From assembly GCA_951406725.2 (NCBI GenBank), contig OX597819.1, forward strand, positions 122,388,001 through 122,452,000: a stretch of DNA of 64,000 nucleotides, given 5' to 3'. The notes beneath the pieces are model-generated. The model was given only the letters and a program-made list of their open reading frames with translations. It was not told where the DNA came from and did not search any database. The position numbers and the translations under genes were made by a program. This document shows positions 634 to 61,524 of this stretch, in pieces. Origin of the DNA: Octopus vulgaris. Taxonomy: Eukaryota. Numbering within the stretch: position 1 is the stretch's first letter; each line of letters starts with the position of its first letter.

Positions 634-710
634 CGCACGCACGCAGCACTCACAGACATATATACGCGCACGCGCATATATACATACATACATACTCACA
701 TATATATTAA

Positions 711-1333
711 CAGGCTCCGGTGAATATATTGCCGTCTAAATTACGCAAAAATGAAAATAACACTGGTATCTCATTTTAAAAGATGATATTTACCAAAATT
801 ACTTTAAAATATTGAAATATACTCTTTTACTCTTTTACTTGTTTCAGTCATTTGACTGCGGCCATGCTGGAGCACCGCCTTTAGTCGAGCAAATCGACCC
901 CGGGACTTATTCTTGTGCCTGGGAGGGTAACTTTCTAGATGCAATCCCACGGTCATTCGTGACCGAAGGGGGTTTGCGAAATATATATATATACATAAAC
1001 CCATCTATCATACATACATACATACATACATACATAAACGTGAGCTTACGTGTGTGTGAGTGTGTGTCTGTGTGCGCATGCGTGTGAAATATATTAGATA
1101 GGAATATGGTATGGGAAGCACTCCGTCGGTTACGATGATGAGGGTTCCGGTTGATCCGAATCAACGGAACAGCCTGCTCGTGAAATTAACGTGTAAGTGG
1201 CTGAGCACTCCACAGACACGTGCACCCATATCGGTCTCTTTTGCCGAATCGCTAAGTGACGGAGACGTAAGCACACCAGCATCGGTTGTCAAGCAATGCT
1301 AGGGGGACAAACACAGACACACAAACACACACA

Positions 1334-1399
<66 letters not shown>

Positions 1400-2290
1400 T
1401 ACGACATGCTTCTTTCAGTTTCAGTCTACCAAATCCACTCACAAGGCATTGGTCGGCCTGGGGCTATAGCAGAAGACACTTGCCCAAGATGCCACGCAGT
1501 TGGACTGAACCCAGAACCATGTGGTTGGTTAGCAAGCTACTAACCACACAGCCACTCCTGCGCCTATAGAGTAAATTTATTCAATAAATTCCCCATTGGC
1601 TCCAACAACGGCCTTCAGACGACTTTGGAATCTCCTGCAACTCCTCTGGACGGTTTCCTTGTTTAAGTTGGTAAATGCTGCCAAATCTTTGCCTTCAGTG
1701 CATCTTTGGCGTTACAAGGAGTTTTGTTTGTCTCTCACTCAACTGTGCCCCACACATAATAATCAAGGGGGTTGCAGTCTGGGGAGTTAGGTGGCCAGAT
1801 GTTAGGGGTAATGTGGTCGCAGAAATTGGCTGACAGCCAAGACTGGGTTCTCCTGATTGTGTGGCATGGCGCAGAGTCATGTTGCCAGACATAGGGTCTT
1901 TCAGCAGCTACACTTTTGACCCAGGGCTGTACTACCTCTTCCAGGCATTTGATGTAGGCCTCCGTGTTGAGTCTGAGGCCGTGTGGGAAGATGAATGGAG
2001 GCATAAAGTCGCCAACACTAGTGATTACTCCAAACACCATGATGTTAATTGGATGTTCTATTTTTAGCACTCCCGGTACATGGTTTTGGGGACACGGCAA
2101 GCCAACGGTTGTTCTGTGTGTTCATCATCTGTTCGTACTGGAGATTCCGGATCGAATGCCAAGCAGCGCAGCATGTCGTTTCCAAATTTCTGGAAGATCG
2201 AATTGCGTCATGGTGCCTTTATCCTTCCAGAGGGTGCCCAACTGGCCCTACTATACTGTGTATCTGACAAAATCAAAAACAAACAATGCG
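711..2290 (-). mobile_element. Internally deleted Tc1/mariner element (maT/DD37D-like), interrupted by SINE-A
   Basis: ORF 1735-2100 has WQHDSAPCH and WPPNSPDCNPLDYYVWG (2nd and 3rd catalytic Asp). C-terminus ..GANGEFIE* lies near 1575. An N-terminus MTQFDLPEIWKRH at ATG 2211 is fused to the mid-catalytic region. Likely terminus caggctccgg at 711. Confidence 0.75.
820..1566 (-). mobile_element. SINE-A (tRNA-derived) with a templated insertion at 912-1226
   Basis: Head ggcgcaggagtggctgtgtggt (A box) and ggttcagtccaa (B-box-like); internal (TA)n; (gtaaaaga)n tail; same family as about 12 copies in the window. Confidence 0.9.
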
Positions 2291-2318
2291 CATGCGCCTT
2301 CACATATATACATGTGAA

Positions 2319-2650
2319 GGCGCATGGCTCAGTCGTTAGAGCGTCGATCTTACGACCGTGAGGTTGTGAGCTCGAATCCTGGACCGGGCTGCGTGTTGTG
2401 TTCTTGAGCAAGACGCTTTATTTCACGTTGCTCCAGTTCACTCAGCTGTAAAAATGAGTTGCGGCGCCACTGATGCCAAACTGTATCGGCCCTTGCCTTT
2501 CCTTTGGATAACATCGGTGGCAGAAAGAGAAGGGAGGCTGGTATACATGGGCAACTGCTGGTCTTCCATAAACAACCTTGCCCGGACTTGTGCCTGGGAG
2601 GGTAACTTTCTAGGTGCAATCCCACGGTCATTCGTGACCGAAGGGGGTTC
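2319..2650 (+). mobile_element. SINE-C, tRNA head with CORE-like central domain
   Basis: tggctcagtcgtt (A box) and gctcgaatcct (B box), followed by gtgttcttgagcaagacgcttt...cagctgtaaaaatgag, which resembles invertebrate CORE-SINE cores. Confidence 0.7.
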
Positions 2651-2799
2651 CGAAAAATATATATATACATAAACCCATCTATCCATGCGCTCATACATAC
2701 ATACATTCATACATAAACGTGAGCTTATGTGTGTGTGTGTGTGTGTGTGAGTCTGTGTGCGCATGCGTGTGAAATATATTAGATAGGAATATGGGATGG

Positions 2800-3137
2800 G
2801 AAGCACTCCGTCGGTTACGACGATGAGGGTTCCGGTTGATCCGAATCAACGGAACAGCCTGCTCGTGAAATTAACGTGTAAGTGGCTGAGCACTCCACAG
2901 ACACGTGCACGCTTAACGTAGTTCTCGGGGATATTCAGCGTGACAAGGCCGGTCCCTTGAAATACAGGTACAACAGAAACAGGAAGTAAGAGTGAGAGAA
3001 AGTTGTGGTGAAAGAGTACAGCAGGGATCACCACCATCCCCTGCCGGAGCGTCGTGGAGCTTTAGGTGTTTTCGCTCAATAAACACTCACAACGCCCGGT
3101 CTGGGAATCGAAACCACGATCCATTGCGCCTCCACAC
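2800..3137 (-). mobile_element. SINE-D (tail type 1)
   Basis: Head tgtggaggcgcaatgg..gtttcgattccc; 19-bp TSD agataggaatatRggatgg at 2781-2799 and 3138-3156. Confidence 0.85.
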
Positions 3138-3915
3138 AGATAGGAATATAGGATGGCAGTGACATTGACGCAAAATAAGATAACAGTTTTCATTCTTTGT
3201 TTAGATCTCTGATTAAGAGGAACTGTTTTCGATTTCAAGACTAATATTGCTTCTTCGATGCAATCATATTTCGCGCTGTGATTAAAAATAAAATTAATCA
3301 TAGAATTCTTCCACTCGAAATAGTGTATTTTATTCTGGTAAATTTCCAACCGAATTTTATTCAATTTATGAAATCCACAATATATGGCAACAAGAAGTCG
3401 TTCGGTAAAATTGCCGGCTGTTAAGTCCGTTTAGTTCATTGAATCAACCAGTTGATTGAACTTTAATCTATTTCTGTTCTCCTGTTGTTTGTTTTGCTCC
3501 ATGTCTGCGAAGACCGAGTAAATCTATGATTAATAACGACTGTTCTATTGTTTTAGTATATAGCCCGTACTGTCCAATGAGATATATTTAGTTATTTTGT
3601 TCTCGCTGGTTAGATGACCGTGTTTAGGCTTCTGTGTACACCTGTGAATTCAGTTGGTGTCTACAGCGATGTAGGGTAAGATATACATTAAATCAGAAGC
3701 GACTGACAGCTACTATACCTCAGTGGTTGTTGATATATATCTCAGTACAACGCTTAGTGTTAAAATTGTCTGCGAGAGCAAAATGATGTTTCTGTATAGG
3801 AACGTTAAAAAGTGGGAGGACATTGCTAGTGTTCACTTCCACTAGATACAGGAATAAGAAAAGAGTTTAGAAAGACGAGAGGGAAGGATGAGAATTACTG
3901 AAGAACAAAAACATT

Positions 3916-4268
3916 GGATCTTTTCGATTTGACCGGCAGATTTTTAAAAATAATTTCTTTATAACTAAACACTTTCAAACTTCGTATACTGGTAGAATGT
4001 GTTTATAAAACATCTTTTTCTCTTGGCTTTCTTGAGAAAATTCTGTAGTTTGTAAGCTATTTGTTGTTTAATTTCTTGGATTTCGGCAATTTCAACCAAT
4101 CAATGACGTCTATTGAGGTGAATACAATATCTCCAGATCTTTGTCAACAACAATTATTTGCGGTATCATATGATGTTTTATAAACACATTCTACCAGTAT
4201 ACGAAGTTTAAAAGTGTTTAGTTACAAAGAATTATTTAAAAAATCTGCCGGTCAAAGCGAAAAGATCC
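3916..4268. mobile_element. MITE-E, palindromic variant lacking TTAGGG
   Basis: TIR ggatcttttcg..ccggcag; long inverted arms; 8-bp TSD aaaacatt. Confidence 0.88.
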
Positions 4269-4329
4269 AAAACATTCGTTGTAAAAAACGAACAAACAAA
4301 AAAAAAAAAAAAAATGAAAACAGTTCCAA

Positions 4330-4740
4330 AGTGAAGTCAATGCTATTAATCTGAAAATTGTATACTCCTTTACATGTTTTAGTGATACAATATCGATTGG
4401 TAGGCATCTTGATACTGAGATACAAAGAAAAGATGACAAAAATAAGCATAGCAATCAGAAGACTGCGTCTACAACCAAAAAGCATTGATATTGTTTTCAT
4501 CAGAATCAAGTGCAGTGTTTAGAGAGCAGTTGTTTTCACCTTGCTTTCGTACGTTTCCTAAACCTAGATAGTATATACGAATCAGATGAAAAACCTTCGT
4601 ACCTTCATGATAAGACAACTGCATTCAGTCGCAAAAATTTCGCAGAAAAGGTATTTCTCCAAACAATGGGATACTAAAATGAACAAAACTGCCAAATATG
4701 AGAGATTTTATCAGGAAGCACGTACGTTAGACGTGGGCAA
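4330..4740 (+). pseudogene. RTE-clade LINE relic (post-RT region)
   Basis: Manual translation RAVVFTLLSYVS*T*IVYTNQMKNLRTFMIRQL resembles the RTE motif RAVVLSTLLYGSETW; stops present. Confidence 0.6.
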
Positions 4741-4797
4741 AAAAAAACGTAATCGCTTCCGTTACAAGATCACAGAAGTAAAAATAAACGAGATATA

Positions 4798-5228
4798 GGC
4801 GCCGGAGTGGCTGTGTGGTAAGTAGCTTGCTAACCAACCAACCACATGGTTCGGGGTTCAGTCCCACTGCGTGGCATCTTGAGCAAGTGTATTCTGCTAT
4901 AGCCCCGGGCCGACCAATGCCTTGTGAGTGGATTTGGTAGACGGAAACTGAAAGAAGCCTGTCGTATATATGTATATGTATATGTATATGTATATATATG
5001 TATGTGTATGTGTGTTTGTGTGTCTGTGTTTGTCCCCCTAGCATTGCTTGACAACCGATGCTGGTGTGTTTACGTCGCCGTCACTTAGCGGTTCGGCAAA
5101 AAGAGACCGATAGAATAAGTACTGGGCTTACAAAGAATAAGTCCCGGGGTCGATTTGCTCGACTAAAGGCGGTGCTCCAGCATGGCCGCAGTCAAATGAC
5201 TGAAACAAGTAAAAGAGTAAAAAGAGTA
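4798..5228 (+). mobile_element. SINE-A, full length
   Basis: Complete head, body and gtaaaagagta tail. Confidence 0.92.
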
Positions 5229-10954: not shown

Positions 10955-11380
10955 TGATCTTTTCGGTTTGAACGGCAGTTTTTAACATAATTTCTAGGTA
11001 ATTAAAAAAATTTTAAACTTCGTATACTGGGAGTATGTGTTTATAAAACATCTTTTTCTCTTGGCTTTATTGAGAAAATTCTATAGTTTGTAAGATATTT
11101 GTTGTTTTTTTCTTCAATTCTGCAATTTCAACCAATCAGTGACGTCTATTGAGTTAAAAAGCATTCTGTGCAGTATGAATATGTCCCTCGTTTAAGAAAC
11201 AGATTGGGTTTATTTACATTTGTGAAGAAAAAAGCGATACCCTTCCCCCACCCCTAACCCTAATTAACCCTAACCCTAAAAGAGATTGAAATGCAATAGA
11301 TCGATACTAGGGTCATAATTATGGGTGACAATTTCATATGACACCGCTAGAAAAAACTGCGGTTCAAACCGAAAAGATCA
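10955..11380. mobile_element. MITE-E with internal (CCCTAA)n
   Basis: TIR tgatcttttcggtttgaacggcag; TSD ttgaactt at 10947-10954 and 11381-11388. Confidence 0.92.
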
Positions 11381-12865: not shown

Positions 12866-13117
12866 CTTCTAATATCAAACACATAAAATATATCGTTGAT
12901 CAGTAATGAATTAGAGAAATGTCAACAACTTTCTAATAGATGGTTTGTGATTGTTGTTGATGGGTAGCTTCTATGAAAGTAATGCGTCAGGATACTCTGA
13001 TTAATTCAAAGGAACTGCAATTAAATATTTATAGAGGACAGAATACATAACAAGGCAATGATTAATTGAGAAAAGTGATGAATTACTAATGTAAATTGGA
13101 CGTATGTTTAAAATATA

Positions 13118-13843
13118 TTATTTCCTACTCTAGGTATAAAGCCCGAAATTTTAGGAAAGGGGCCAGTCAATTATATCGATCCCAGTACGCAACTGGTACT
13201 TAATTTATCGACCCCGAAAAGATGAAAGGCGGAATTTGAACTCAGAACGTAGCAGCAGACGAAATACCAGACGAAATACCTATTTCTTTACTACTCACAA
13301 GGGGCTAAACACAGAGGGGACTAACAAGGACAGACAAACGGATTAAGTCAATTATATCGACCCCAGTGTGTAACTGGTACTTAATCTATCGACCCCGAAA
13401 AGATGAAAGGCAAAGTCGACCTCGGCGGAATTTGAACTCAGAACGTAACGGTAGACGAAATACCTATTTCTTTATTATCCACAAGGGACTAAACAGAGAG
13501 TGGACTAACGAGAGACACAGGTTTTAAGTCGATTACATCGACCCCAGTGCGTAACTGGTACTTAATTTATCGAACCAGAAAGGATGAAAGGCAAAGTCGA
13601 CCTCGGCGGAATTTGAACTCACAAAGTAACGGCAAACGAAATACCTATTTCTTTACTACCCACGAGGGGCTAAACACAGAGAGGACAAACAAGGACAGAC
13701 AAAGGGATTAAGTCGATTATATCGTCCACAGTGCGTAACTGGTACATATTTAATCGACCCCGAAAGGATGAAAAGTAAAGTCGACCTCGGCGGAATTTGA
13801 ACTCAGAACGTAAAGTCAGATGAAATACCGATAAGCATTTCGC
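13118..13843 (-). mobile_element. SINE-B array (4 units; terminal unit has type-2 tail)
   Basis: Junctions gacgaaatacc|tatttctttacta. Confidence 0.9.
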
Positions 13844-13846
13844 AAA

Positions 13847-16219
13847 TTTTTTATTTCCCACAAGGGGAGAACAAAGAGAGGACAGTACAATCTGATATGG
13901 GGTCAGATTTATCGTATGAGTTAACAAAAAGATGAATTTAAAAATTTTACATAAATATGAATAGTTCGAATGATAACATATACAAGACAACAATACAGAA
14001 TCGAGTGGAGAGGCGGGATATGCTCGGACACCACGAGACCCCGTCTCAACACTGATGCTTTGGGTTCATCCTGCGTTGTATTCATTCGGTTCCATCCATA
14101 CGCAACATTCGTGCGACATTCTTCCATCGATCTTGGAACATTTTCGCAGACAGGCATTTTTTATCTAACCCTATTTTCCTTCTTAGGTGGAAGGTGAAGA
14201 AATTCACCAAGCCAGGGCCAGAGATGCGTCTTCCAAATCACCTCTTTCGCAATTGCTACAATGACGGGAAAGCAATTCTTACCTTCTTTCGGTAGGAAAT
14301 CCGGTGGGTCAGTTTTTACTATTGACTCAGTCGATAGCTGTACTCTTCCTGTACTTGACAACAGTTGTTTGGCATAAGTCCTTAGCTAATGCTAATCCCT
14401 CCATAGTGTCTCTAGCCTATGTCTGTGAGGAAATATGATTTTAATATTACAAGGCTTATGTCGTCTATTTGTATTATCATAATTCCTTCTGGAAGTTTAG
14501 CGGGATCTATTCGGTTTGAACGGCAGTTTTTTCTATCGGTGTCATATGAAATTGTCACCCATAATTATGACCCTAGTATCGATCTATTGCATTTCAATCT
14601 GTTTTAGGGTTAGGGTTAGAGTTAGGGTTAGTTAGGGTTAGGGTTAGGGGTGGGGGGAAGGGTATATTTTTTTCTTCAGAAATGTAAATAAGCCCAATCT
14701 GTTTCTTAAACGAGGGACATATCCATACGGCACAGAATGTTTTCACCTCAATAGACGTCATTGATTGGTTGAAATTGCAGAAATTGAAGAAAAAACCAAC
14801 AAATATCTTACAAACTATAGAATTTTCTCAATAAAGCCAAGAGAAAAATATGTTTTATAAACACATTCTACCAGTATACGAAGTTTAAAAGTGTTTAGTT
14901 ACGTGGAAATTATAAAAAAAAAACTGCCGGTCAAACCGAAAAGATCCGTTTAGTGTAATGTCCTTTGAAGATTTCTGCTGTAGGAATATTTTAAATTCTA
15001 GTTGTCAATTGTTCGTTCGTGGCATTTATTGCCACTAATAGTAACTTGTTTTGCCATATATTTTTTCCAGGACTGGAGGGATGATTTTTCTGGGCCGGAC
15101 GGAGGGGATATACGGGGGAGAGATCGGGGACTGGAGGATGGGGATTGGAGGGGTGAAATTTCAGGGCTGAGTGGGAGGGAGGGGAGGGGAGGTTATCAGG
15201 GTTGGAAGGAGGAGATATCGGTGTTTCTTTTGGTGAATAGTGGTGGGTTGGGGTAGTTTGAGTTTCGTGTGTGTGTCTGTTGAGGGAGCTTTTTTCTTGT
15301 TCGAGCTGGATGTTGAAGGGATGGGATTGGGGTTCTTCCTTTTGGTTAATTTCTTCCTTTTTATCGTAGACCATCCTTCTTCACTCCCAGCTAGTTGAGT
15401 GTTTTCATTGCTGGGAGCCTACTGGTCGGTCTTCTGCGTTCTTTTTTTGAGCCGTCTCCACCTTACGGGTAGGACAGTTTGCCCGAATGTGGCCTTTCTC
15501 TCTACATTTGAAGCACCGGGGTCTTCTCCCCTCCACCATTACCCGTAAGGTGGTTTCTTCTCCGAGGTGTATGTTCTCTGTGATCATTTTCAGGGTCTGA
15601 GGCGCTGCTTGGATAATGACCTCGAGGCCTTGCCCCTTCCAGTTCTGCTGGGGTATTTTTGAGGTCTCTTATATCGTTATTTCTATTATTCTCATTAGTA
15701 TGGCTGGGAATAGCCATGATACGTTCATTTCTGGCGGGATATCTTCTACCGTGATCATTGACGTGCGCCTGCCAAAGTATGTTGGCAGCAATACAAAATC
15801 CGTGGTTTTCAAAGGTTGTACCGAATGTATTTTCGCTTTCTCTTCACTTTTGAAATACACTACTAGCGTGGCAAAGCATTTGCCTCTGGTCAGGTATTCT
15901 ATGTTCTGCCAGATCGGCTGTAGGCATTTTTCTATAGCTTCTTTTGGTGCTTTGTCTAGATTATTTTCTTTTACAACAAGAGTTTTAAATACGGCTATTT
16001 TTTTTTTTGCCGCTTCTTCTATAATTTCACTCGGGAGGGTGGCTTTTACGTCGTACCCCTCCTTTGAAAACATGGTTTGGTGCTGCATTAGTACATTTTT
16101 GTCAACAGATAATTTTTCTTTTTTTCAGTCCAGCCGCAGCTGCAAAATTAATCTTTTTTGCCGTCCCTACAAATTTTTCTGCCGTCGGCATACTTAATAT
16201 TTCACAGTTTATTTTACAT
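13847..16219 (-). mobile_element. L1/Tx1-like non-autonomous element: decayed ORF1 joined to ORF2 C-terminus and 3' UTR, no EN or RT
   Basis: ATG 16191 MPTAEKF..NFAAAAG frameshifts into ORF 15669-16088; CCHC knuckle CFKCREKGHIRANC; Pro-rich segment; then IVAIAKEVIWKT and FHLRRKI..FQDRWKNVARM, typical of L1/Tx1 ORF2 ends; A-rich tail. Confidence 0.75.
14503..14947. mobile_element. MITE-E with internal (TTAGGG)n
   Basis: TIRs; TSD gtttagcg/gtttagtg. Confidence 0.9.
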
Positions 16220-16758
16220 TTAAGTCGATTATATCGACCCCAGTGCGTAACTGGTGCTTATTTAATCGACCCCGAAAGGATAAAAAGGCAAAGTCGATCT
16301 CGGCGGAATTTGAACTCAGAACGTAAAGACAGACGAAATACCTATTTTTTTACTACCCAGAAGGGGCTAAACACAGAGAGAACAAACAAGGACAGACAAA
16401 CGGATTAAGTCGATTATATCGACCCCAGTGCGTAACTGGTACTTAATTTATCGACCCCGAAAGGACGAAAGGCAAAGTCGACCTCGGCGGAATTTGAACT
16501 CAGAACGTAGCGGCAGACGAAATACCTATTTCATTACTACCCAAAAGGAGCTAAACACAGAGGGGATAATCAAGGACAGACAAACGGATTAAGTCGATTA
16601 CATCGACCCCAGTGCGTAACTGGTACTTAATTTATCGACCCCGAAAGGATGAAAGGCAAAGTCGACCTCGGCGGAATTTGAACTCAGAACATAACGGCAG
16701 ACGAAATACGGCTACGCATTTCGCCCGGCGTGCTAACGTTTCTGCCAGGTCGGCGACT
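16220..16758 (-). mobile_element. SINE-B array (head plus 3 bodies) running directly into the ORF1 element
   Basis: Same unit junctions; last body ends at atcgacttaa. Confidence 0.88.
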
Positions 16759-16979
16759 TTATTTAAAATATATTGAAAGACATCTGCGTCAAGTTATCAC
16801 ATCAAATTTCCTGTTTTTCGTCAATTATCTCATCTTTCTTGGAAAATCTTGGATGTGAGCGAAAAGGCAACGCGAAAATATGCCTGTCAGTGTTTTTAAC
16901 TTTAGGTTGTTATCCATAAAATTTATCAATAGTATCTTTACTGTCGCTGATGGATCTAATGTAACTCCTGAAAATAATA

Positions 16980-18042: not shown

Positions 18043-18460
18043 GGACCTTTTCGGTTTGAACGGCAGTCTTTTCTAGCGGTGTCATATGAAATTGTCACCC
18101 ATAATTATGACCCTAGTATCGATCTATTGCATTTCAATCTGTTTTAGGGTTAGGGTTAGGGGTGGGGGTAAGGGTATCTTTTTTTCTTCACAAATGTAAA
18201 TAAACCCAATCTGTTTCTTAAACGAGGGACATATTCATACGGCACAGAATGTTTTTTTACTTCAATGGATGTCACTGATTGGCTGAAATTGCAGAAATTG
18301 AAGAAAAAAAACAACAAATATCTTACAAACTATAGAATTTTCTCAATAAAGTCAAGAGAAAAAGATGTTTTATAAACACATTCTACCAGTATACGAAGTT
18401 TAAAATTTTTTAATTACCTAGAAATTATGTTAAAAACTGCCGTTCAAACCGAAAAGAGCT
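18043..18460. mobile_element. MITE-E with internal (TTAGGG)n
   Basis: TIRs; TSD taaaatac/caaaatac. Confidence 0.88.
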
Positions 18461-19653: not shown

Positions 19654-20086
19654 TTGAACGGTTTGAACGGCAGTTTTTAACATAATTTTTAGATAACTAA
19701 AAAATTTAAAACTTCGTATACTGGTAGAATGTGTTTATAAAACATCTTTTTCTCTTGGCTTTATTGAGAAAATTCTATAGTTTGTAAGATATTTGTTGTT
19801 TTTTTTCTTCAATTTCTGCAATTTCAACCAATCACTGACGTCCATTGAGGTAAACAACATTCTGTGCCGTATGAACATGTCCCTCGTTTAAGAAACAGAT
19901 TGGGTTTATTTACATTTGTGACGATAAAAGGTACCCTTCCCCTCACCCCTAACCCTAACTAACCCAAACTAACCCTAACCCTAAAATAGATTGAAATGCA
20001 ATAGATCGATACTAGGGTCATAATTATGGGTGACAATTTCATATGACACCGCTAGAAAAAAACTGCCGTTCAAACCGAAAAGATCT
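19654..20086. mobile_element. MITE-E with (CCCTAA)n; left TIR damaged
   Basis: TSD caaaaggt (19646-19653, 20087-20094); left end replaced by a duplicated ttgaacgg. Confidence 0.85.
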
Positions 20087-24568: not shown

Positions 24569-27500
24569 GCAGACCAATTGAAAAGAGCAACAATGTAAAT
24601 AAAATAGATAAGAGAAGCACAGAACTCAGTGTACGAGCTGTACATCCCAACGAGGGAGCTGAACGGAGAATAGTGAAGAACAGAGGTATGGAAAAAGAGG
24701 AAAATGTAGACCTACCTCAATAGAATAGATATGACATAGAATTTGAGGTGAATAATAAAGAGAAGATCATAGAAGCAAAAGAAGATATCATGAGAGAACT
24801 CAGCAAGACTGAATTTACTGACATGATCAATAGAGAACCGCTACCAGATCTCTCAAACAGCATAAAATATAACAACACAATCATACTATATAATGTTGTT
24901 CTTAGTTCTTAATAAATTAGGGAACTAACCTAACGAGCTTAAATAAACCTCATCTGTTCCACTACTGAAGTTGTAACTGCTCAACGAGGTACCAGGACGA
25001 CAGAGAAAAGGGACCAACCATGTCAATAGACCGCCTAAGTTGAAATTAGGAATGCAAAAAGAGATCGAATTTTTGCGGGCAACAATGTAGTGGCTGTGTG
25101 GTAAGTAGTTTGCTTACCAGCCACATGGTTCCGGGTTCAGTCCCACGGCGTGCCACATTGGGACTGAACCCGGAACCATGTGGCTGGTAAGCAAACTACT
25201 TACCACACAGCCACTCCTACGCTTATAAATGATAACATCGGTGCAATTGAAGGAAAACTTCGTGGGATATTAATCAAGGAATTCCCTGGATCCAGCTTCG
25301 AAGGAGTTGGTTTTTAATAGATTTTATATAACAGTTCTACTAGAAAAAACATTTCAAATAATAGATCAGTTCTCGATGAACTTGGTAGAGGAGTAAATGT
25401 TAAGAAGAAACAAGCTAGAAAAATCAAGCAAAAATATAAAATTCAAAGATTTTATAAACCTCCCTGTAACCAAGGAAATTGTGAAATAACGAATACAAAT
25501 GAAAGCCCAACGGCTCAGAAGATACGACAAAAGAATCAAATTTTATCGACAAAACAAGGTATTCAAAACTTATGTAAAGAAATGTTATAGCGAAATTGTA
25601 AGACAGAAGTAAGATAGAAGTAAAGAAGCCACCTAAGGCTGAGGAAATGGAAGAGTTGTGGAAGAAGATATGGGGCAACAAAAAGAGTATAGTGTTGAAG
25701 CTGACTGGATAAAACGTGAGAAAGTGAGACTGGATGAAGTTGAAGAGGAGAAATGAGAGGCAATAGGAGTAGAAGAGCTAATATGTGTTCTTAGAAAGTG
25801 TCACAAATGGGGAACCCCCACGACTGGACCAGATCCCTAACCTCTGGTTGAATTGTTTGATAGAAGTACAGCAAAATTTTGCTGCATCCTTAACTGATGT
25901 CATCTAGAACCCAGAGCAAATACCTGCTTGGTGGACCAAAGCAACAACATACCTTCTACCAAAAATTTAAGACAGGAAAAATCCAAAGAACTACCGACCA
26001 ACAACATGTCTCAACACTACGTACAAGATCCTCACTTCGATTCAAACTGAAGGAATATACGCTTTCCTGAAACAGAACTCTATCCTTCCACAAGCTCAAA
26101 AAGGTTGTAAAAAGAATACTTATGGATGCAACGATCAATTACTCATAAATAAAATGATTGTAGAGAATTGCCGGAGGAAAAAGAACCTGAGTATGGCATG
26201 GACAGACGACAGGAAAGTGTTTGATTGTGTTGTCTCCAAATTCTTACAAGGTTGCATGGCCAAGTGGAATACACGTCTCCTTCTACAGCATAATAATGAG
26301 ATGAGCCAATCTAACAACATCAACATCGAACGAGGCATCTTTGAAGGTAACTCCCCCCTTACTCTTTTGCATGGCACTGATCCCACTCTCAAAAGATCTG
26401 AGTAACACCAGGTATGGGTTAAAAACCATCTGTTTTATATGGACGATCTGAAGCTGTTTGCTAGTAGGGCTGTTAACAACTGTTAAAGAGTTAAGCAATG
26501 ACATTTGGATGGATTTTGGTTTTGATAAGTGTGCTAAAGGAACTTTTGTAAGAGGCAAGCTCAAACAAGTAGCTTCCATTAAATTAGATACCGACATAAC
26601 CATCAAAGAGCTTGACCCACAAGAAAATTACAAATACCGGGGGATAAACGAAGGAGATGGAATACAACATGCTACTATGAAGGAAAAAATAAGCAAGGAG
26701 TATTACATACTCATACTAAAAACTGAACTCAACTCCCAAAATCGCATCGAGGCCATTAAAACCCTGGCACTTCCAGCTGCCCAATACAGTTTTAACATCA
26801 TTAACTAGAATCTCACAGAATTCTAATGTCTTGACAGGAAGAAGAAAGCTACTCACAACTAAGATCATGCACCATCCAAGAGCAGATGTTGATCGCCTGT
26901 ATCAACCTAGAAGTAATGGGGGAAAAGGAATGAAGGCGGTTGAACTGTGCTATAAGTCTCCCACGTTAGCAATAAACAAGTATTTATATAGTACAGAGGA
27001 CTGGATGCTGCGGCTTGTGTGCAAATACGGAAGCCGCAAAAGATCACATTATATTGTCAAGGAAGCTTGCAAATTCGCAAGGGAACTCGGTATTAACCCC
27101 GAATTAGAGGAAGAACCTAAAACCAAGCCATCAAAATGGACGAAACAGACTACAAGAAAGAACGGGCAGAAACAAATTGAGGAGCGGTGGAGACAGAAAC
27201 CTCTACATGGACAGTATATACTTCGAAGCCACAATGCTAATGTAAACCAAGCCACAACCCATCAGTGGCTGAGAAGCTCAAAACTGAAAGCAAAAACTCA
27301 AGGTTTTATATTAGCGGCGCAAGATCAAAGCTTGCTCACAAACAACTGCCAGGCTAACGTTCTTCAAAACGGTTCTGACCCTAAATGCAGATTTATGCGG
27401 TTCATTTGATGAAACAGTAGATCATCTTGTCTCGGGATGTCCTGTGCTGACACCAAACAAATACAAAAATCGCCACAACAGGGTAGAACAGTATTTACAT

Positions 27501-27601
27501 TGGAAAATATGTAAATACTAAAAGATCAACACTCCTGCTTACTGGTACGAACATCATCCTGAGCCGGTCGTCACTATCCCTTGGGATTTTCCCGTCAACA
27601 C

Positions 27602-27802
27602 TTTCAAGACGCGCTCCGCCATCTTGTCGTGTAATATTTGATTCAATTAAATTAAACGTCCACCAAAATTATTTGGCTAAACAAACATAGAAAACCAGTA
27701 ACAGGTTCCTGGTGTTTCTATTCACAACTTGGAATAAAATAAATATTGCAAAACAACACCAATCCAGGTGTAAAGAAATATTTTCACGAAATTTACTTGG
27801 AG
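27602..27802. mobile_element. Unclassified 200-bp insertion in the LINE
   Basis: Interrupts WDFPVNT|DRMIQANRPD; flanked by direct repeat caacac. Confidence 0.6.
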
Positions 27803-28273
27803 CAACACCGACAGAATGATCCAGGCTAATCGACCAGACATAGTCATTAGAGATAGGGAAGAAAATACTTGTAGAATAATAGATGTAAAGGAATTTGACA
27901 AATTAAGTAAATATAAGGGCCTGGAAATTGAAATACAAAAGATGTGGCATCTTAAAGCGAGAACTGTTCCTTTTATTGTGGGTACCTTGGGTATGATAAG
28001 GAAGGGATGTCAGAAACATGTGGATAATATCCCAGGAGAACTATGTCTCAGAGAAATCCGAAAGATTGTGCTGACAAGTACTGCCCACATCCTTAGAAAA
28101 CCCTATCAATTTAAATGTATGTGTCGTATTACATGAAGATATTTCGCTACTGCTCTTGCCACTTCCCCTCCCCAAGCTTTCAGTCATTCTGTAACATCTC
28201 TTATCCTTCACTCTCCCTAGGTCGCTGAGTGTGTCTCGGCAAGTGATTGTAACAAACGTGCAGATTAAAAGTA

Positions 28274-33360: not shown

Positions 33361-33985
33361 GGATTCCTTCACTCCACTTCGTTTCCCTTTCTCCATTGTC
33401 TTAATCCTTCATCGTTAAAAAAAAAAAAAATTACTCTTTCTAAAGAAAAACAAAAAGATAATTTTTGTCATTTCATTATTTTCTCTTAATTTTCTTTTGT
33501 TCCAACTCTCTTCTCATTTTTTCTTTCATTCCCTTTCACTCCATTATACCATTCCTTTGTCACATTTGCCTCAAGAAACGAATAAATTTTAAACAAAAGT
33601 GGACCAAACACCTGGCGTCGAACTAAGCTTCCTAAGGATTTACCAAACATCGTTTCTTTCGGAGATCATTAGGATGATGATTTTTTTTTTCAGTAAGATT
33701 TGTATTATTTCTGTATTTGTTCTTGTGTCTCCTGTTTCTCCTGTTATTCAATCAATTTCATCTCTGCTTCATTGTTGTGTTTTGGAGCGAAGAATTTTTC
33801 GACAGGTTTCCATTGAGCTCGAAATATGACCTCCGACTGGTTCTATGTTAATTGAAGCCACCGTTGAGAAATATTGTTGTCGCTGGTTGTGTGATATCAT
33901 AATTCTTTTGGCGATGTATGTCAGATATTCTGATGCAACTATACTCCCATATAACGCTTATCAGATTTTTACGCTTGTGGCAGAT

Positions 33986-34023
<38 letters not shown>

Positions 34024-34062
34024 CAGCAACAACAACAACAATAATTATAATAATAATAATAA

Positions 34063-34573
34063 TACCAGAAAAGGTCACAGAAAACAAGAAAGCAACCATA
34101 CTCTGGGATATACCAATATACACAGATAGAGAAATTAAGGCCAATAGGCCAGATATACTTGTCAGAGATCATGAAGAAAAAAAATGCTTTCTAATTGATG
34201 TATCAATACCAGCTGATGACAACGTTTCTCTAAAAGAAATGGAGAAACTTTCAAAATACAAAGACCTGGAAATAGAGGTAACTCGAATGTGGAATCTAAA
34301 AACAGAAACAATTCCTATCATAGTAGGCGCATTAAGTATAATAAAAAATTTTTTACACAAATACATGACAAAAACACCAGGACTTAAATATATATACAAC
34401 ATACAGAAAATTGCACTACTAAGCACTGCACACATCCTACGCAGAACACTTTCAATACAATAACCATCAGAGCATCACAACAAATCACAGCACATACCCA
34501 AGGCACACAGAGCTGCACTCGGTAGTGCAGTGATAGCATGCTATAAAAATAAAACTACTGAATAATAATAATA
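34063..34573 (+). pseudogene. Third R4/Dong-clade LINE, 5'-truncated to the endonuclease, inside a TAA tract
   Basis: PEKVTENKKATILWD..NRPDILV..LIDVSIPAD..EKLSKY; TAA repeats on both sides. Confidence 0.9.
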
Positions 34574-39289: not shown

Positions 39290-39800
39290 AGACTGGAATT
39301 GTTAGCCCGTCTCTTGTAATTTCGATCAATTGTATCTTGTCCTCCCTCTTGTATAGAAGTGTGGCTACAATCCAGCCTACCTCTACTTCTTCGGGGATAT
39401 TTTAAATTTTTATCCGGGACGTCCTTCGTCCCAGATATAAAGGTAAAAATAAAATATTTCCACTTTGCAAGGTTCGAGTCGAGGACTCCTTTGCACGCTC
39501 CGTTGACTCGAAACTTGCTTCTATTGTGGCGAATTTACCGCCCCTGGTTAGATATCTTTCATAGTCGCACCAAGACACTTTTCGATGGTGCTTGCCCCCA
39601 GGTGTTCAAATCTTTTTTTTCTCTACATTGTATGCTTTATAGACAATAATCTTTTCTTTAAATTAATTTTTTATTTCGTTTGGTGGTGTTATCCTAGATT
39701 CACTGTCTTTGTCGTTGATTAATCCGAAATAGGTTTGTATTTCTTCCTTTTTAATTTTAATGAGTTCGCGCCCGCCGACGGCTGCAGCGGAATTCATTTT
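39290..39800 (-). pseudogene. Second, divergent copy of the L1/Tx1-like ORF1 (N-terminal half)
   Basis: Manual translation IEKCL..LTRGGKFATIEASF..YLGRRTSRIKI*NIPEEVEVGW aligns with ORF 15669-16088 (IEKCL..LTRGKCFAT..YFGRRTSMITVEDIPPEMNVSW). Confidence 0.75.
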
Positions 39801-39961
39801 TGGACTTTCTTCGCTCGAAGGCCTTCTAACAAAAATGCTTCTGTATAAAAGGTGAAAATATTGTCAATTTCCCGAAACAGGGACACAATTCTATTTTTAA
39901 ACAATAACCAAAGCTCCTTCTCCCAAAGGGTGAGGGTTACAGTTTACAATTATTTAACATT

Positions 39962-47200: not shown

Positions 47201-47323
47201 AGTTAACCAATTGACAAATAATTAAGAAGTGAAATAGAACCAGTGCATGTGCTTATTATGGCATAATGGCCTTCTTGATATACAACATTGTATATATAAG
47301 TGTATATGTATATATATATGTGT

Positions 47324-48486
47324 TGACATCGTTTTATTGGACTTTGTCAAAGCTTTTGACTCAGTAAACCACCGCCTACTACTTGTCAAGCTTCAATCAT
47401 ATAGTTTCCATCCGGATATTGTACGATGGGTTGGTGCCTTCCTCTCAGATCGCTCCTTCCAAGTTCAAGTTAATGGTTCGCGGTCCGACGTCTCCAGTGC
47501 GAGCAGTGGCGTGCCTCAAGGTTCAGTGCTTGGGCCCTTGTTGTTCTTAGTCTTCATAAATGACTTGCCCGACGACCTCACGCAACACACCCTTCTATTT
47601 GCCGACGATATCAAACTGGTCGCTCCTCGCGGTAGTATAGAGGATCTTCGTCGATGCCTCCACCAAATTTGGAAGTGGTCTAACGATTGGGACCTGTGTC
47701 TGAACGTGTCAAAGTGCTGTCATCTGCCTGTCGGCTCTACTCCTGCAACTCAACTTGATTTCGAGCCGGGTCGTCTGCTGCTGGAGAGGACCGATCAGGT
47801 AAAGGACCTGGGTATCTTGGTGGATTCCTCCTTTTCGCCTTCGGCCCAGTGCGTCCATGCTGCCAACAAAGCGCGCGGAATTCTGTTTTTGATTCGACGG
47901 TCATTCGGAATGCTCACAGCAGCCATATTCCTGCCACTCTATGTCACGCTGGTGAGACCCATATTGGAGTATGGGATTCAAGCCTCTTCTCCTTATCTCC
48001 TCAAAGACATACAGCACCTCGAAAGAGTCCAGAGGCTGGCTACCCGCATTGTTCATGGTCTCAAAAATTTGTCCTACGAAGAAAGGCTGAGGACGCTCGA
48101 CCTTTATTCTCTTGAAAAACGCCGCCGCCGTGGTGATCTCATTCTCGTCCACAACATCATAAGCGGGAAGTGTAACCTCTCGAAAGAGCTGTTCTTCACT
48201 CCTGCTCCGGAGCGTCGGCTGCGGGGTCATTCCGAAAAGCTCTACCTGCGACGATTTCATCTCAATCGAAGGAGAGGAGCTTTCTCCGTCCGGGTTGCGG
48301 ATCCGTGGAACAAGCTGCCAGACGAGATGGTGAAGATGCCGACGACCGCTTTGTTCAAAGCCTCCCTGGACCTCAAGTGGCCTGAACTCTTTACATGAAC
48401 ACCACCCTGTACTTAACTCCATGTCCCCCTACATGGCCTTGCTATTTGCTTTTGAGCCAAATTAACTAACTAACTAACTAACTAAC
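47324..48486 (+). mobile_element. 5'-truncated CR1-clade LINE with open RT frame
   Basis: DFVKAFDSV, GVPQGSVLGPLLF, LFADDIKL, LERVQRLATR, RRRRGDLI, RGH, WNKLP; (AACT)n tail; 14-bp TSD atatatatatgtgt (47310-47323, 48487-48500). Confidence 0.93.
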
Positions 48487-53031: not shown

Positions 53032-53259
53032 TTCTTGATAAATGTTTCAACTGCAAACGCACAAAGCTCACCGGTCTCAGCCATAACTATTGGGTTGGTG
53101 CATAATTATTGCGGCTTTTTTTCAACAAAAACAACCTGTAACAAAAAATTCTTTAAACGATTTTCCGGAGCATATTCAACATCTACTTCAATTACTGCTT
53201 CATATTATCTTGGCAGACGGTCACAGCGTCATTTAAAGATGATTTTGTTAAATATTGTT

Positions 53260-53440
53260 TTAGCGGTTCGCCAAAGGAGATCGATAAAATGGCTTAGCGG
53301 TTCGACAAACAATTTCGATAAGATGACTTAGCGGTTCGTCAAACGAGATCGATAAAATGACTTAGTGGTTCGCCAAACGAGATCGATAAAATGATTTAGA
53401 AGTTCGCCAAACGTGATCGATAAAATGACGTAGCGGTTCT
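53260..53440. repeat. Satellite 1 (34-bp monomer), left arm
   Basis: aaacgagatcgataaaatgacKtagcggttcgNc units. Confidence 0.9.
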
Positions 53441-56400
53441 AACTGCTGAGAAATTTCGTCGAAAACGTCCTGGGAAGTTCCGAGGATTTTCTAACTACCG
53501 GGAAATTTCGCCAAAAACTTCGTGGGAAGTTCCGAGGGTTTTCTATGTTCCGGGAAATTTCGTCGAAATCTTCGAGGACAGTTCCGAGGATTTTCTAACT
53601 TTTAGGAAATTTCGTCCAAAACTGCATGGGAAGATTCGAGGATTTTCTAACTTCCAGGAAATTTTGTCGAAAACTTCCAGGAAAGTCCCGAGGATATTCT
53701 AACTTCCCTGAAATGTCGTCAAAAACTGCATGGGAAGTTCCAAGGAATTTTCTAAATAAAGGGATATTTCGTCGAAAACTTCCAGGAAAGTCCCGATAAT
53801 TTTCGCCCTGCTGGGAAATTTCGTCGAAAACTGCATGGGAAGTTCCGAGGATTTTCTAACTTCCGGGAAATTTGACCGAAAACTGCATGGGAAGTTCCGA
53901 GAGTTTTCTAACTTCCGGGAAATTTGGTCGAAAAATGCATGGGAAGTTCCAAAGATTTTCTAACTCCCGGGAAATTTGATCGAAAACTGCATGGGAAGAC
54001 CCAAGGTTTTCCTAAATTGCGGGAAATTTTATCAAAAATTTGCTGGGAAATTCCGAGGATGTTCTACCCTCCGGATAATTTCGTCGAAAACATCCCTCCA
54101 GATAATTTGGTCGAAAACTTGCTGGGAAAGTTCCGATGATGTTCCGGGAAATTTCGTCGAAATCTGCATGTGATGTTACGAGGATTTTTTTTAACTCCGA
54201 GGAAATTTGGTCGAAAACTAGCTGGGAAGTTCCGAGGTTTTTCCGACAAATTTGGTCGAAAATTTCTTGAAAGTTCCGAGGATGATCTAACCTCCGAAAA
54301 ATTTCGTCGAAAACATCCCTCCGGATAATTTCGTCGAAAACTTCCCTTCGGATAATTTGGTCGAAAACTTCCCTTCCGTTAATTTGGTCGAAAACTTCCT
54401 GGGAAAGTTCCGATGATGTTCCGGAACATCATCGGAACTTTCCCAGGAAGTTTTCGACCAAATTATCCGGAGGGATGTTTTCGACGAAATTATCGGAGGT
54501 TAGAACATACTCGGAACTTTCAGGAAATTTTCGACCAAATTTTTCGGAAGTTTATTTTTAAATTTCCCAGAAAAACCTCGGAACTTCCCAGCTAGTTGTC
54601 GACCAAATTTCCTCGGAGTTAAAAAATCCTCGTAACATCCCATGCAGGTTTCGACGAAATTTCCCTGAAGATCATCGGAACTTTCCCAGGAAGTTTTCGA
54701 CCAAATTATCGGAAGGGAAGTTTTCGACCAAATTATCCGAAGTGAAGTTTTCGACGAAATTATCCGGAGGGAAGTTTTCGACGAAATTTTTCGGAAGTTA
54801 GAACATCCTCGGAACTTTCAGGAAATTTTCGACCAAATTTGTCGGAAGTTTATGTTTAAATTTCACGGAAAAACCTCGGAACTTCCCAGCTAGTTTCCGA
54901 CCAAATTTCCTCAGAACATCCCATGCAGGTTTCGACGAAATTTCCCGGGATATCATCGGAACTTTCCCAGGAAGTTTTCGACCAAATTATCCGAAGGGAA
55001 GTTTTCGACCAAATTACCCGAAGGGAAGTTTTCGACGAAATTATTCGGAGTGAAGTTTTCGACGAAATTTTTCGGGGGTTAGAACATCCTCGGAATTTTC
55101 AAGTAATTTTCGACCAAATTTGTCGGAAGTTTATGTCTAAATTTCCCGGAAAAACCTCGGAACTTCCCAGCTAGTTTTCGACCAAATTTCCTCGGAGTTT
55201 AAAAATCCGCGTAACATCCCATGCAGGTTTCGACGAAATTTCCCGGAACATCATCGGAACTTCCCCAGGAAGTTTTCGACCAAATTATCCGAAGGGAAGT
55301 TTTCGACGAAATTATCCAGAGGGAAGTTTTCGACGAAATTTTTCGGAGGTTAGAACATCCTCGGAACTTTCAAGAAACCTGCATGGTGTGTTACGAGGAT
55401 TTTTTTAACTCCGAGGAAATTTGGTCGAAAAGTAGCTGGGAAGTTCCGAAGTTCCGGGAAATTTAAACATAAACATCCGAAAAATTTGGTCGGAAATTTC
55501 ATGAAAGTTCCGAGGATGTTCTAACCTCCGGATAATTTCGTCGAAAACATCCCTCCGGATAATTTGGTCGAAAACTTCCTGGGAAAGTTCCGACGATGTT
55601 CCGGGAAATTTCGTCGAAACCTGCATGGGATGTTACGAGGATTTTTTAACTCCGAGGAAATTTGGTCGGAAAGTAGCTGGGAAGTTCCGAGGTTTTTCCG
55701 GGAAATTTAGACAAACTTCCGAAAAATTTGGTCGAAAATTTTCTGAAAGTCCCGAGGATGTTCTAACCCCCGGATAATTTCGTCGAAAGCATCCCTTCGG
55801 ATAATTTGGTCGAAAACTTCCTGGGAAAGTTCCGCTGATGTTCCGGGAAATTACGTCGAAATCTGCATGGGATGTTACGAGAATTTTTTTTAACTCCCGA
55901 CAAATTTGGCCGAAAATTTCTTGAAAGTTCCGAGGATGTTCTAACCTCCGAAAAATTTCGTCGAAAACTTCCCTCCGGATAATTTCGTCGAAAACTTCCC
56001 TTCGGATAATTTGGTCGAAAACTTCCCTTCGGATAATTTGGTCGAAAACTTCATGGGAAAGTTCCGATGATGTTCCGGGAAATTTCGTCGAAACCTGCAT
56101 GGGATGTTACGATGATTTTTTAACTCGGAGGAAATTTGGTCGAAAACCAGCTGGGAAGTTCCGAGGTTTTTCCGGAAATTTAGACAAACTTCCGAAAAAT
56201 TTGGTCGAAAATGTCCTGAAAGTTCCGAGGATGTTCTAACCTCCGGACAATTTCGTCGAAAACATCCCTCCGGATAATTTGGTCGAAAACTTCATGGGAA
56301 ATTCCGATGATGTTCCGGGAAATTTCGTCGAAATCTGCATGGGATGTTACGAGGATTTTTTAACTCCGAGGAAATTTGGTCGAAAACTAGCTGGGAAGTT

Positions 56401-59867: not shown

Positions 59868-60152
59868 TTGTTGAAAGAGAAAACCCGCAATAATTATGCG
59901 CCAACCCTTATATAACTAAAAACAAAAGCGTAAAACAATAGCTATATTCTGACACCATTATTATCTGCCTCAGTTTATTAGCCCTAGTTAATGGCCCCAT
60001 AAAATACGATTGGTTTTCCTGTCGCATTCGCCCCTCGTATATTTCAATGTGAATTAAGTGTTATGAACTTACATCTCGCATTTAATATCATTCGCACATT
60101 ACCAACGAACGTTATATTTCACAACAGCGTATCCTTATCTCTCTATATAAAA

Positions 60153-60548
60153 TCTTTATATATAAAAGTGAAGTTGTGTGTCTGTCTCCTACGATTTAGA
60201 TTCCTAACTACTCCCACATTTTGCGGTGCAGTTTAACCAAAACCGGGTATCTTATAGTCGTGATTCATATCGAGCCCTTCTGGGTATTAGCGCGCGTCTA
60301 CAATGAGTCTACGATTTAAAAAAAAAATTACCATCAATTTTTAATGCATTTTTAATGCATTTTTGGCATATATAAGGGAAGTAACTCTCTAAAAATGTAT
60401 TATTAAATCTCAGAACATAAAAAGCTACAGTAACATCCCCCCCTTTGTTGTTAGCCATATTGAGATGGCTATTATACTTTACATCTCTAGAAATGCTTAT
60501 ATAGTTATTTCCCTTACAAACCCGAGCAACGCCGCGCGATAGTGCTAG
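60153..60548 (+). mobile_element. Non-autonomous Helitron (same family as 49959)
   Basis: High identity to 49959-50350; TC...CTAG ends. Confidence 0.88.
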
Positions 60549-61069: not shown

Positions 61070-61134
<65 letters not shown>

Positions 61135-61492: not shown

Positions 61493-61524
61493 ATTTTCGA
61501 TCTTCTAATCAGTATCAAATTATG

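What the first reader, a model, noticed from the sequence alone, without database searches (positions are those of the whole stretch)
13118..16758. RT-less Tx1/L1-like ORF1 element fused to a SINE head and sharing that SINE's tail
Seen (minus strand): the SINE-B body ends at atcgacttaa (16220), exactly where short SINE-B units begin their type-1 tail. Here it continues instead into 2.4 kb of gag-like ORF1 (CCHC knuckle) plus only the extreme C-terminus of ORF2. That element ends ttgtactgtcctctctttgttctccccttgtgggaaataaaaaa, close to the SINE-B type-1 tail ttgtttgtcctctctgtgtttagccccttgtgggtagtaaagaaata, and is followed by another SINE-B resuming inside its head. Established: Tx1-clade LINEs often target multicopy sequences (Keno/U2, Mutsu/5S, Dewa/tRNA spacers, Tx1L/other transposons), and SINEs borrow LINE tails. 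Inference: a SINE-targeting Tx1-like lineage captured its target as a 5' leader, giving a long ORF1-coding form and a short form that both reinsert into SINE heads. Caveat: the related ORF1 at 39290-39800 has no SINE head.
Basis: partly seen in the sequence, partly recalled or inferred. Interest (0 to 1): 0.78.

Follow-up and report, generated by a model that had tools for sequence, protein, structure and literature searches.

The report
LINEs and SINE homing into SINE
The element is a single broken copy of an ordinary full-length jumping gene, but its family and a second, separate family land at two fixed spots inside one very common short repeat, and that short repeat, which carries a related tail, likely inserts into its own copies at a third spot.

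Summary
The sequence is as described, but the headline reading fails. The window element is a one-off decayed copy of an autonomous 5.2-kb L1/Tx1-type LINE (APE, RT and zinc finger in relatives). It lost its own 220-bp 5' UTR, has two ORF2 deletions and holds a 448-bp MITE. Its SINE-body/ORF1 junction and its ORF2 deletion junction each occur once in the genome. There is no SINE leader and no RT-less family. The targeting idea holds strongly: 23 of 25 independent 3' ends of this family resume at SINE position ~29 (chance about 6e-4 each). A phylogenetically separate family (p-AU 3e-77) resumes at position ~11 in 17 of 17 loci, with target-copied duplications (8 of 8 concordant). The SINE's tail shares a covarying 3' stem-loop with the whole LINE clade but is closer to sister families. 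About half of such SINEs (14 of 27 random) sit at position 43 of another SINE copy. Closest precedent: Tx1-Mar/SINEU-3 in Mariner-N4 (PMC4494074). This scan noted SINE-targeting Tx1-like LINEs before in other genomes (unchecked notes).

The parts
16762..16774 (-). 13-bp direct repeat, upstream copy: likely target-site duplication of the original SINE into which everything else inserted
   Evidence: sequence shows an identical 13-mer at 13107-13119; AT-rich, so weak alone
16711..16758 (-). SINE head, positions 1-42 (left half of the target); 16711-16724 is the left copy of the 14-bp duplication
16343..16710 (-). two 184-bp SINE body + type-1 tail units (16527-16710, 16343-16526), inferred later insertions at the head/LINE junction
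   Evidence: filled/empty pair L018/L009
16220..16342 (-). third unit, body only; its tail and the LINE 5' UTR (reference 1-221) are missing; single-copy junction
14949..16219 (-). ORF1 remnant of family-A LINE (reference L061 222-1479, 82%), with stops and frameshifts; CCHC knuckle 15471-15518
14501..14948 (.). unrelated MITE with terminal inverted repeats, flanked by a 5-bp direct repeat
14415..14500 (-). LINE reference 1476-1547, ending at deletion 1 (reference 1547 to 2540, removes the endonuclease)
14375..14417 (-). 43-bp ORF2 island (reference 2540-2582), ending at deletion 2 (2582 to 4670, removes the RT); single-copy junction
13844..14377 (-). ORF2 C-terminus and 3' UTR (reference 4670-5227, 87%) with terminal stem-loop and A-rich end
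13830..13843 (-). right copy of the 14-bp target-site duplication (SINE positions 29-42)
13281..13829 (-). three SINE body + type-1 tail units (to 13646, 13465, 13281), 86-91% identical to their neighbours
13120..13280 (-). last SINE body with a different (type-2) tail: inferred remainder of the original target SINE
   Evidence: 13 of 35 arrays end this way
13107..13119 (-). 13-bp direct repeat, downstream copy

Best explanation
The window holds one decayed, doubly deleted copy of an autonomous L1/Tx1-type LINE family that sits at one fixed site in the head of a very abundant SINE, a second LINE family sits at another fixed site of the same head, and SINE copies with a tail related to this LINE clade likely insert into their own kind at a third site. 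Mechanism (inferred from junctions and established target-primed reverse transcription): the family-A endonuclease nicks the SINE at position 28|29, the second cut falls at 42|43, giving a 14-bp duplication; family B does the same at about 11|12 and 27|28. The SINE likely took its 3' tail, with a 4-bp/5-nt stem-loop, from a member of this clade and is likely copied in trans by clade proteins. Its commonest subtype lands before a GGTA motif, and the most abundant such site is its own position 43; the new copy's 5' end would anneal to the identical head of the target, leaving head + (184-bp unit)n. Inferred history of the window locus: a type-2-tailed SINE with a 13-bp duplication; nested type-1 units; family-A insertion; more units at the head/LINE junction; then local deletions with 2-3 nt microhomology, a MITE, stops and frameshifts. 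The order of the last events is unknown.
For: Full-length 5.2-kb copies L061-L063 with Exo_endo_phos E 2.5e-6, RVT_1 E 5e-18, zf-RVT E 0.002. Family-A 3' ends: 32 of 35 loci followed by the SINE by script, 2 unscorable, 1 non-SINE; after collapsing duplicated segments and reading two offset cases and L073 by eye, 23 of 25 events at position ~29; background 5.8e-4 per site from 400 kb of arbitrary stretches. The SINE part that follows carries different tails in different loci, so it is target, not element. Family B: 15 of 17 by script, 17 of 17 by eye at position ~9-12; an A/T variant inside the duplicated stretch agrees on both sides in 8 of 8 scorable copies (5 T, 3 A; 2 further copies unscorable; permutation p 1/56), including 5'-truncated copies. 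A and B are each clades (100/99) and their union is rejected (p-AU 3.1e-77, 29 rows). Tail stem-loop: 92.7% of 82 cells paired, 3 of 4 pairs with two-sided changes, covariation 0.527 against 0.196 shuffled and at most 0.146 slid (21 tails). Random sample: of 27 type-1 tails 14 are followed by SINE position 43 (11 by script, 3 by eye), 2 by position 13-16, 11 by other DNA; none of 34 other-tailed bodies showed position 43 next (read by eye). 13 of 35 arrays end in a body without the type-1 tail, and 38 of 42 neighbouring units are under 97% identical. Duplicated segments L009/L018 share flank, LINE and deletion, and differ by exactly one unit at the head/LINE junction. Pairwise identities are alike: A 87%, B 83%, SINE 87%.
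Against: No LINE whose 3' end joins SINE position 43, and none with the SINE's exact tail, was found, so the partner of the commonest SINE subtype is unidentified. The SINE tail scores 46-58 against sister families F, G and L135 but 32-42 against family A. For family A the two copies of the 14-bp stretch share no private variants in six copies with both ends, so that it is a true duplication is argued by analogy with B and from the one non-SINE insertion L048. Neighbouring units are more alike (median 91.5%) than random bodies (85.6%), and 4 of 42 pairs are 97% or more, so tandem duplication or conversion contributes (the background mixes subfamilies). The family-B query included 63 nt of SINE, which may favour SINE-flanked hits. 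Searches score only 40 candidates each. Placement in Tx1 rather than L1 was not tested against named references.
Confidence: 0.8

Rival explanations
1. One reading: the lineage captured the SINE as a 5' leader and exists as a long RT-less ORF1 form and a short form, both mobile.
For: The window junction falls within 3 nt of the body/tail boundary; many family-A copies carry internal ORF2 deletions with both ends kept.
Against: Both window junctions are single-copy; deletion breakpoints differ between loci (1552-4642, 1174-4472, 696-4449, 1521-5105, 2445-4870) and the only shared one is a segmental duplicate; ORF1 is broken; 19 of 21 copies start with the family's own 5' UTR.
Confidence: 0.04
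2. The LINEs are target-specific, but the SINE arrays arise mainly by DNA-level slippage or unequal exchange between the internal GGTA at position 43 and the GGTA that often follows a type-1 tail, not by targeted reinsertion.
For: 15 of 35 arrays end in a type-1 tail; 4 of 42 neighbours are 97% or more identical; neighbours exceed background identity. The L009/L018 difference could be a precise loss.
Against: 13 of 35 arrays end in a body with another tail or none, which copying of a type-1 unit cannot make; in L018 the extra unit is of another tail subtype than the SINE behind the LINE in L009; most neighbours are 79-96% identical.
Confidence: 0.12
3. The SINE self-targets not by endonuclease preference but because its RNA ends in bases that pair with nicked DNA at its own position 43 (pairing-guided priming), using any clade protein.
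For: 5 of 7 non-SINE flanks of the commonest subtypes begin with the same four bases as position 43, against 0 of 4 for the other subtype; no LINE with a 3' junction at 43 was found.
Against: At L167 the four bases are part of a 14-bp duplication present on both sides, so they belong to the target; this fits either cause. Not separable from sequence alone. This is a variant of the best explanation, not an alternative to self-insertion.
Confidence: 0.3
4. The 14-bp stretch behind family A, or more of the SINE, is carried on the LINE RNA, and the association is hitch-hiking rather than targeting.
For: No shared private variants between the two 14-bp copies in family A.
Against: The downstream SINE differs in tail and subfamily between loci; the upstream head is present too, also for 5'-truncated copies (L050, L203, L208); family B duplications copy target variants (8 of 8).
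Confidence: 0.04

Closest known systems
Tx1-Mar LINEs with SINEU-3 in Mariner-N4_AMi (crocodilians; Kojima 2015, PMC4494074; passages and part 3 of 5 of the text read)
   Same: Tx1-type LINEs prefer another transposon; different families use different positions in it; a SINE shares the target preference and forms tandem copies by sequential insertion.
   Different: There the target is a DNA transposon and tandem SINEs sandwich a duplication; some Tx1-Mar families carry an snRNA head. Here the target is the SINE itself, two unrelated families use sites 17 nt apart, arrays have no repeated head or duplication between units, and the LINEs carry no SINE head.
Tx1L in Tx1D (Xenopus), Keno in U2, Kibi/Koshi in microsatellites (as cited in PMC4494074); Mutsu and Dewa (recalled, no call)
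   Same: APE-type LINE with fixed insertion site in a multicopy sequence and a short target duplication.
   Different: Target here is a dispersed SINE of several hundred thousand copies (extrapolated from 83 hits in 400 kb), which itself appears to depend on the clade.
HAL1 and R2 SIDE non-autonomous deleted LINEs (recalled, no call)
   Same: ORF1 kept, ORF2 internally deleted, both ends or the 3' end kept.
   Different: Those are amplified families with one shared deletion; the window copy's junctions are single-copy and its ORF1 is broken.
Tail-swapping SINE superfamilies and tandem SINE arrays in molluscs (PMC4824008, PMC11481361, PMC4758252; passages read)
   Same: One SINE head and body with alternative LINE-derived tails; arrays with a first full SINE followed by partial units are described in a bivalve.
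   Different: The passages read name L2/CR1 partners and explain arrays by unequal recombination; 'Tx1' does not occur in PMC11481361 or PMC4824008.

Membership tests
Tx1 clade (L1 group) non-LTR retrotransposon | ORF2 with APE endonuclease, RT and C-terminal zinc finger | tested here: met
   In relatives L061, L078, L062: PF03372 E 2.5e-6, PF00078 E 5e-18, PF13966 E 0.002 (below cut-off); deleted in the window copy
Tx1 clade (L1 group) non-LTR retrotransposon | ORF1 with gag-like CCHC knuckle | tested here: met
   PF00098 E 3.7e-5 at window 15518-15471
Tx1 clade (L1 group) non-LTR retrotransposon | RT groups with named Tx1 elements rather than L1 or other clades | tested here: inconclusive
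   No named Tx1 protein among the listed hits. A 43%-identical full-length homologue, P0122, matches human L1 ORF2p best (E 1e-72; R2 6e-29): L1 group supported, Tx1 not separated from L1
Tx1 clade (L1 group) non-LTR retrotransposon | Sequence-specific insertion into a multicopy target with short duplication | tested here: met
   23 of 25 (A) and 17 of 17 (B) at fixed SINE sites; variant concordance 8 of 8 in B
Non-autonomous ORF1-only LINE family (HAL1/SIDE-like) | Several independent insertions share one deletion junction | tested here: not met
   One match genome-wide with up to 2 mismatches; other deletions differ
Non-autonomous ORF1-only LINE family (HAL1/SIDE-like) | ORF1 kept intact | tested here: not met
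   Stops and frameshifts; longest open piece 151 aa
Small-RNA- or SINE-headed LINE (like U1-headed Tx1-2_Crp) | Shared SINE-derived 5' leader as part of the element | tested here: not met
   Own 5' UTR in 19 of 21 copies; body/ORF1 junction single-copy
SINE with LINE-derived tail | 3' tail homologous to a LINE 3' end, with shared structure | tested here: met
   0 of 5000 shuffles; best window in the whole LINE is its 3' end; covarying stem-loop
SINE with LINE-derived tail | tRNA-derived head with Pol III boxes | tested here: inconclusive
   ARAGORN found no tRNA in the window, Rfam no tRNA match in three SINE-bearing loci; A- and B-box-like motifs only by eye
LINE-SINE partner pair (Tx1-Mar/SINEU type) | SINE and a specific LINE family share the same insertion site and age | tested here: inconclusive
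   Ages alike. One tail subtype shares family B's site in 4 of 20 cases (biased loci); the commonest subtype's site (43) matches no LINE 3' junction found
LINE-SINE partner pair (Tx1-Mar/SINEU type) | Trans-mobilisation shown experimentally | not testable with these tools
   Needs a cell or in vitro assay

The most novel reading that the evidence does not exclude
A closed loop: a SINE took the 3' recognition stem-loop of a target-specific LINE clade and became both cargo and landing pad, so that it breeds into itself (about half of such copies, on the order of 100,000 nested insertions by extrapolation), while two independent LINE families converged on the same 45-bp head and split it into separate cut registers (about 11, 29 and 43).
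Probability: 0.55. Interest if true: 0.62.

Novelty: new variant of a known kind. Interest (0 to 1): 0.47.

Why it matters
Target-specific LINEs are known for RNA genes, microsatellites and DNA or LTR transposons. A SINE as the target, used by two unrelated families at different sites, and a SINE that nests into itself with a tail from that clade, were not found in my eight literature searches (open-access library only, Repbase and supplements unseen). It would explain the common 184-bp SINE arrays of this genome, show that an abundant SINE is a safe niche that selects for endonuclease specificity repeatedly, and supply closely related endonucleases (ORF2 about 77% identical in DNA) with different targets, a natural series for studying how APE specificity shifts. 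The window element itself is an ordinary decayed copy.

Tried and rejected
Search for a LINE carrying the SINE's exact tail: 7 genome matches, all SINE rearrangements; none among 1.59 Mb of fetched loci, and no shared LINE start behind SINE position 45-60 among 246 heads. Search for copies of the window's junctions: only the window. Named Tx1 references for an RT tree: none, so no clade tree was built; the family tree uses DNA of the last part of ORF2 from own-genome loci only (3 and 2 short rows dropped, no outgroup). Ribozyme or tRNA in the 5' UTR or head: no Rfam match above gathering score, no tRNA. Expression: no RNA holder listed; contigs of two guessed-RNA runs cover SINE and MITE but hardly the LINE; no evidence either way. 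Contigs of two other runs match 287 and 243 bases of the window ORF1 without a difference at about single-copy depth, which speaks against an assembly artefact, but they may be the source sample and no listed piece bridges a junction. A genome-wide count of family-A 3' ends was not obtained, so all counts rest on the 40 best candidates per search. The earlier-findings look-ups by place and by sequence were empty.
Full report
Setting. The window is G000:C6:122388001-122452000 of a 2.8-Gb genome. The best named hit of the family's RT is a protein of the octopod Argonauta hians at 53% identity, so the host is likely an octopod cephalopod (inference). SINE positions below are counted from window 12650 on the minus strand; they vary by about 3 with A-tract length. 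LINE positions refer to the full-length copy L061.

Observation. A 448-bp MITE (14948-14501) with a 5-bp direct repeat sits inside the element and has at least four other copies in the window. ORF1 is about 1.27 kb and broken. Against L061 the window copy covers 222-1479, 1476-1547, 2540-2582 and 4670-5227: it lacks the 5' UTR, the endonuclease and the RT, with 2-3 nt microhomology at the joins.

The family is autonomous in type. A search with the ORF1 start gave 47 matches (40 of 142 candidates scored), one with the 3' part 41 matches (40 of 1063 scored). L061, L062 and L063 span about 5.2 kb from 5' UTR to tail. Open pieces carry Exo_endo_phos, RVT_1 and zf-RVT. A homologue's best solved relative is human L1 ORF2p. 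No named Tx1 reference was retrieved, so 'Tx1-type' rests on the gag-like ORF1, the ORF2 layout and the behaviour. All copies read are decayed; pairwise identity is 87% (12 copies) with a star-like tree.

No SINE leader, no RT-less family. Of 21 family-A loci with a 5' part, 13 start with the family's own UTR right behind SINE position 42, 5 right behind a type-1 tail, 1 behind a tail with a small deletion, 1 is rearranged, and 1, the window, joins body to ORF1 (24 of the 30 loci were examined, 3 of them from more distant families). The body/ORF1 junction and the second ORF2 junction each match once in the genome. Internal deletions are frequent but their breakpoints differ; the one shared pair, L009 and L018, also shares its flank and is a segmental duplicate.

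Family A targets the SINE. Of 35 loci, 32 have SINE sequence right behind the 3' end, 2 could not be scored by script and 1 (L048) has other DNA. Ten loci are copies of one duplicated segment (shared flanks; two tested are 97.9% identical over 9 kb) and count once, as do L009/L043. With three cases read by eye, 23 of 25 events resume at position about 29; one has lost its end and one is elsewhere. In 40 arbitrary 10-kb stretches the chance per site is 5.8e-4. Both queries ended inside the LINE tail, so they did not select for the flank. The following SINE has different tails at different loci. Head 1-42 before and 29 onward behind give a 14-bp duplication; its two copies share no private variants in six two-ended copies, a weakness.

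A second family targets a second site. Sister family B (ORF1 about 66% identical, ORF2 about 77%) starts behind head position 27 and resumes at about 11. All 17 loci at 84% or more show this by eye, 15 by script; the query held 63 nt of SINE, a possible bias. An A/T variant in the duplicated stretch agrees on both sides in 8 of 8 scorable copies (L084, L093, L193, L202, L208 with T; L089, L195, L203 with A; L085 and L197 unscorable), so the stretch is copied from the target. A and B are each supported clades, B groups with families that have other flanks, and A+B as one clade is rejected (p-AU 3.1e-77; unrooted, so two gains or a gain with losses). Other sisters end repeatedly before other repeats or before LINE 5' UTRs.

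The SINE tail. Its similarity to the family-A end is significant (0 of 5000 shuffles) and confined to the LINE's last 70 nt, but it scores higher against sisters F, G and L135. Across 18 LINE and 3 SINE tails a 4-bp stem with a 5-nt loop just before the A-rich end is kept, with two-sided changes in 3 of 4 pairs (the tails are related, and the structure was chosen after seeing them). This fits the established rule that a SINE borrows the LINE's 3' recognition signal (PMC4824008, passages); the donor is the clade, not shown to be family A.

The SINE nests into itself. In the 400-kb sample there are 83 SINE hits covering 2.9% of bases. Of 27 type-1 tails, 14 are followed by position 43 of another SINE, 2 by position 13-16 and 11 by other DNA; none of 34 bodies with other tails showed position 43 next (partly by eye). 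Of 35 arrays, 13 end in a body without the type-1 tail, 15 in a type-1 tail and 7 otherwise; neighbours have a median identity of 91.5%, with 4 of 42 at 97% or more. So most arrays need insertion into an older SINE, and some units were duplicated or converted. L018 has exactly one unit more than its duplicate L009, between head and LINE. The short 'form' is therefore not a separate element but the visible part of a whole SINE whose head would merge with the target's head (inference). The LINE that cuts at 43 was not found; preference may come from an unfound endonuclease or from RNA-DNA pairing.

Known context. PMC4494074 (passages and part 3 of 5 read) describes Tx1 families in Tx1D, U2, microsatellites, Mariner, Harbinger and LTR elements, and SINEU-3 sharing the Mariner target with tandem sequential insertions. 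PMC13282606 (parts 1-2 of 3 read) lists L1-Tx1 families in an octopus without discussing targets; its library and supplement were not seen. PMC11481361, PMC4824008 and PMC4758252 were seen as passages. Eight searches returned no paper whose listing or read passages describe a SINE-targeting Tx1 family or a self-targeting SINE; Repbase and subscription papers are outside the library. This scan's earlier notes report SINE-targeting Tx1-like LINEs in other genomes; they are unchecked, were read after my reading was formed, and are not counted as support.

Verdict. The headline, an RT-less SINE-headed element, is a single decayed copy and ordinary. The system around it is real and well supported: two independent site-specific LINE families in one SINE head, and a SINE with a clade tail that likely inserts into itself. 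New variant of a known kind; interest 0.47.

Noticed in passing
window 39295-39960 (-); L101-L112: The related ORF1 piece is the 5' UTR and first part of a Tx1-like ORF1, cut at the same point in all 12 loci examined and embedded in another repeat; 2557 candidates, the 40 best 92-100% identical. A high-copy element that carries a LINE fragment. Sister family F ends inside this repeat's upstream part in 3 loci (L210, L217, L220).
   Followed up: partly
L113, L114, L120, L123, L125 (3' flanks): A more distant sister family ends at one spot of a shared repeat that looks like the start of a Mariner transposase (recalled, untested), which would parallel crocodilian Tx1-Mar.
   Followed up: no
L081, L094, L095, L096, L124, L128, L134, L135: Several sister families end directly before what reads like a LINE 5' UTR of the same clade, suggesting self-nesting; three loci (L209, L214, L221) share yet another fixed flank.
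   Followed up: partly
L252:6140-6215; L061:1965-2050: The 5' UTRs of families A and B keep two hairpins just before ORF1 with different sequences (z -4.8 in B, -2.0 for part of A); no Rfam match. Possible translation or packaging signal.
   Followed up: partly
L051-L060, L079, L080 (contig C31 and C7:1.62 Mb): At least 20 near-identical copies of a segment over 9 kb that holds one 5'-truncated family-A insertion: a large dispersed or tandem duplication on C31.
   Followed up: partly
L062:4450-5950: A 1.5-kb GC-rich insertion inside a full-length LINE copy that looks like a piece of rDNA with part of the small-subunit gene (by eye, untested).
   Followed up: no
window 14501-14948, 10956-11379, 18043-18457, 19659-20085, 3916-4126: Abundant 450-bp MITE with an internal telomere-like hexamer tract; also inserted into SINEs behind family-A copies L035 and L041.
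   Followed up: partly
window 53100-64000: Large block of 27-, 34- and 52-bp satellite arrays with higher-order spacing of about 243 bp.
   Followed up: no
window 47238-48398 (+), 25971-28136 (+), 33903-34463 (+): Fragments of other LINE-type reverse transcriptase genes, candidates for the partner of the SINE's other tails; not examined.
   Followed up: no
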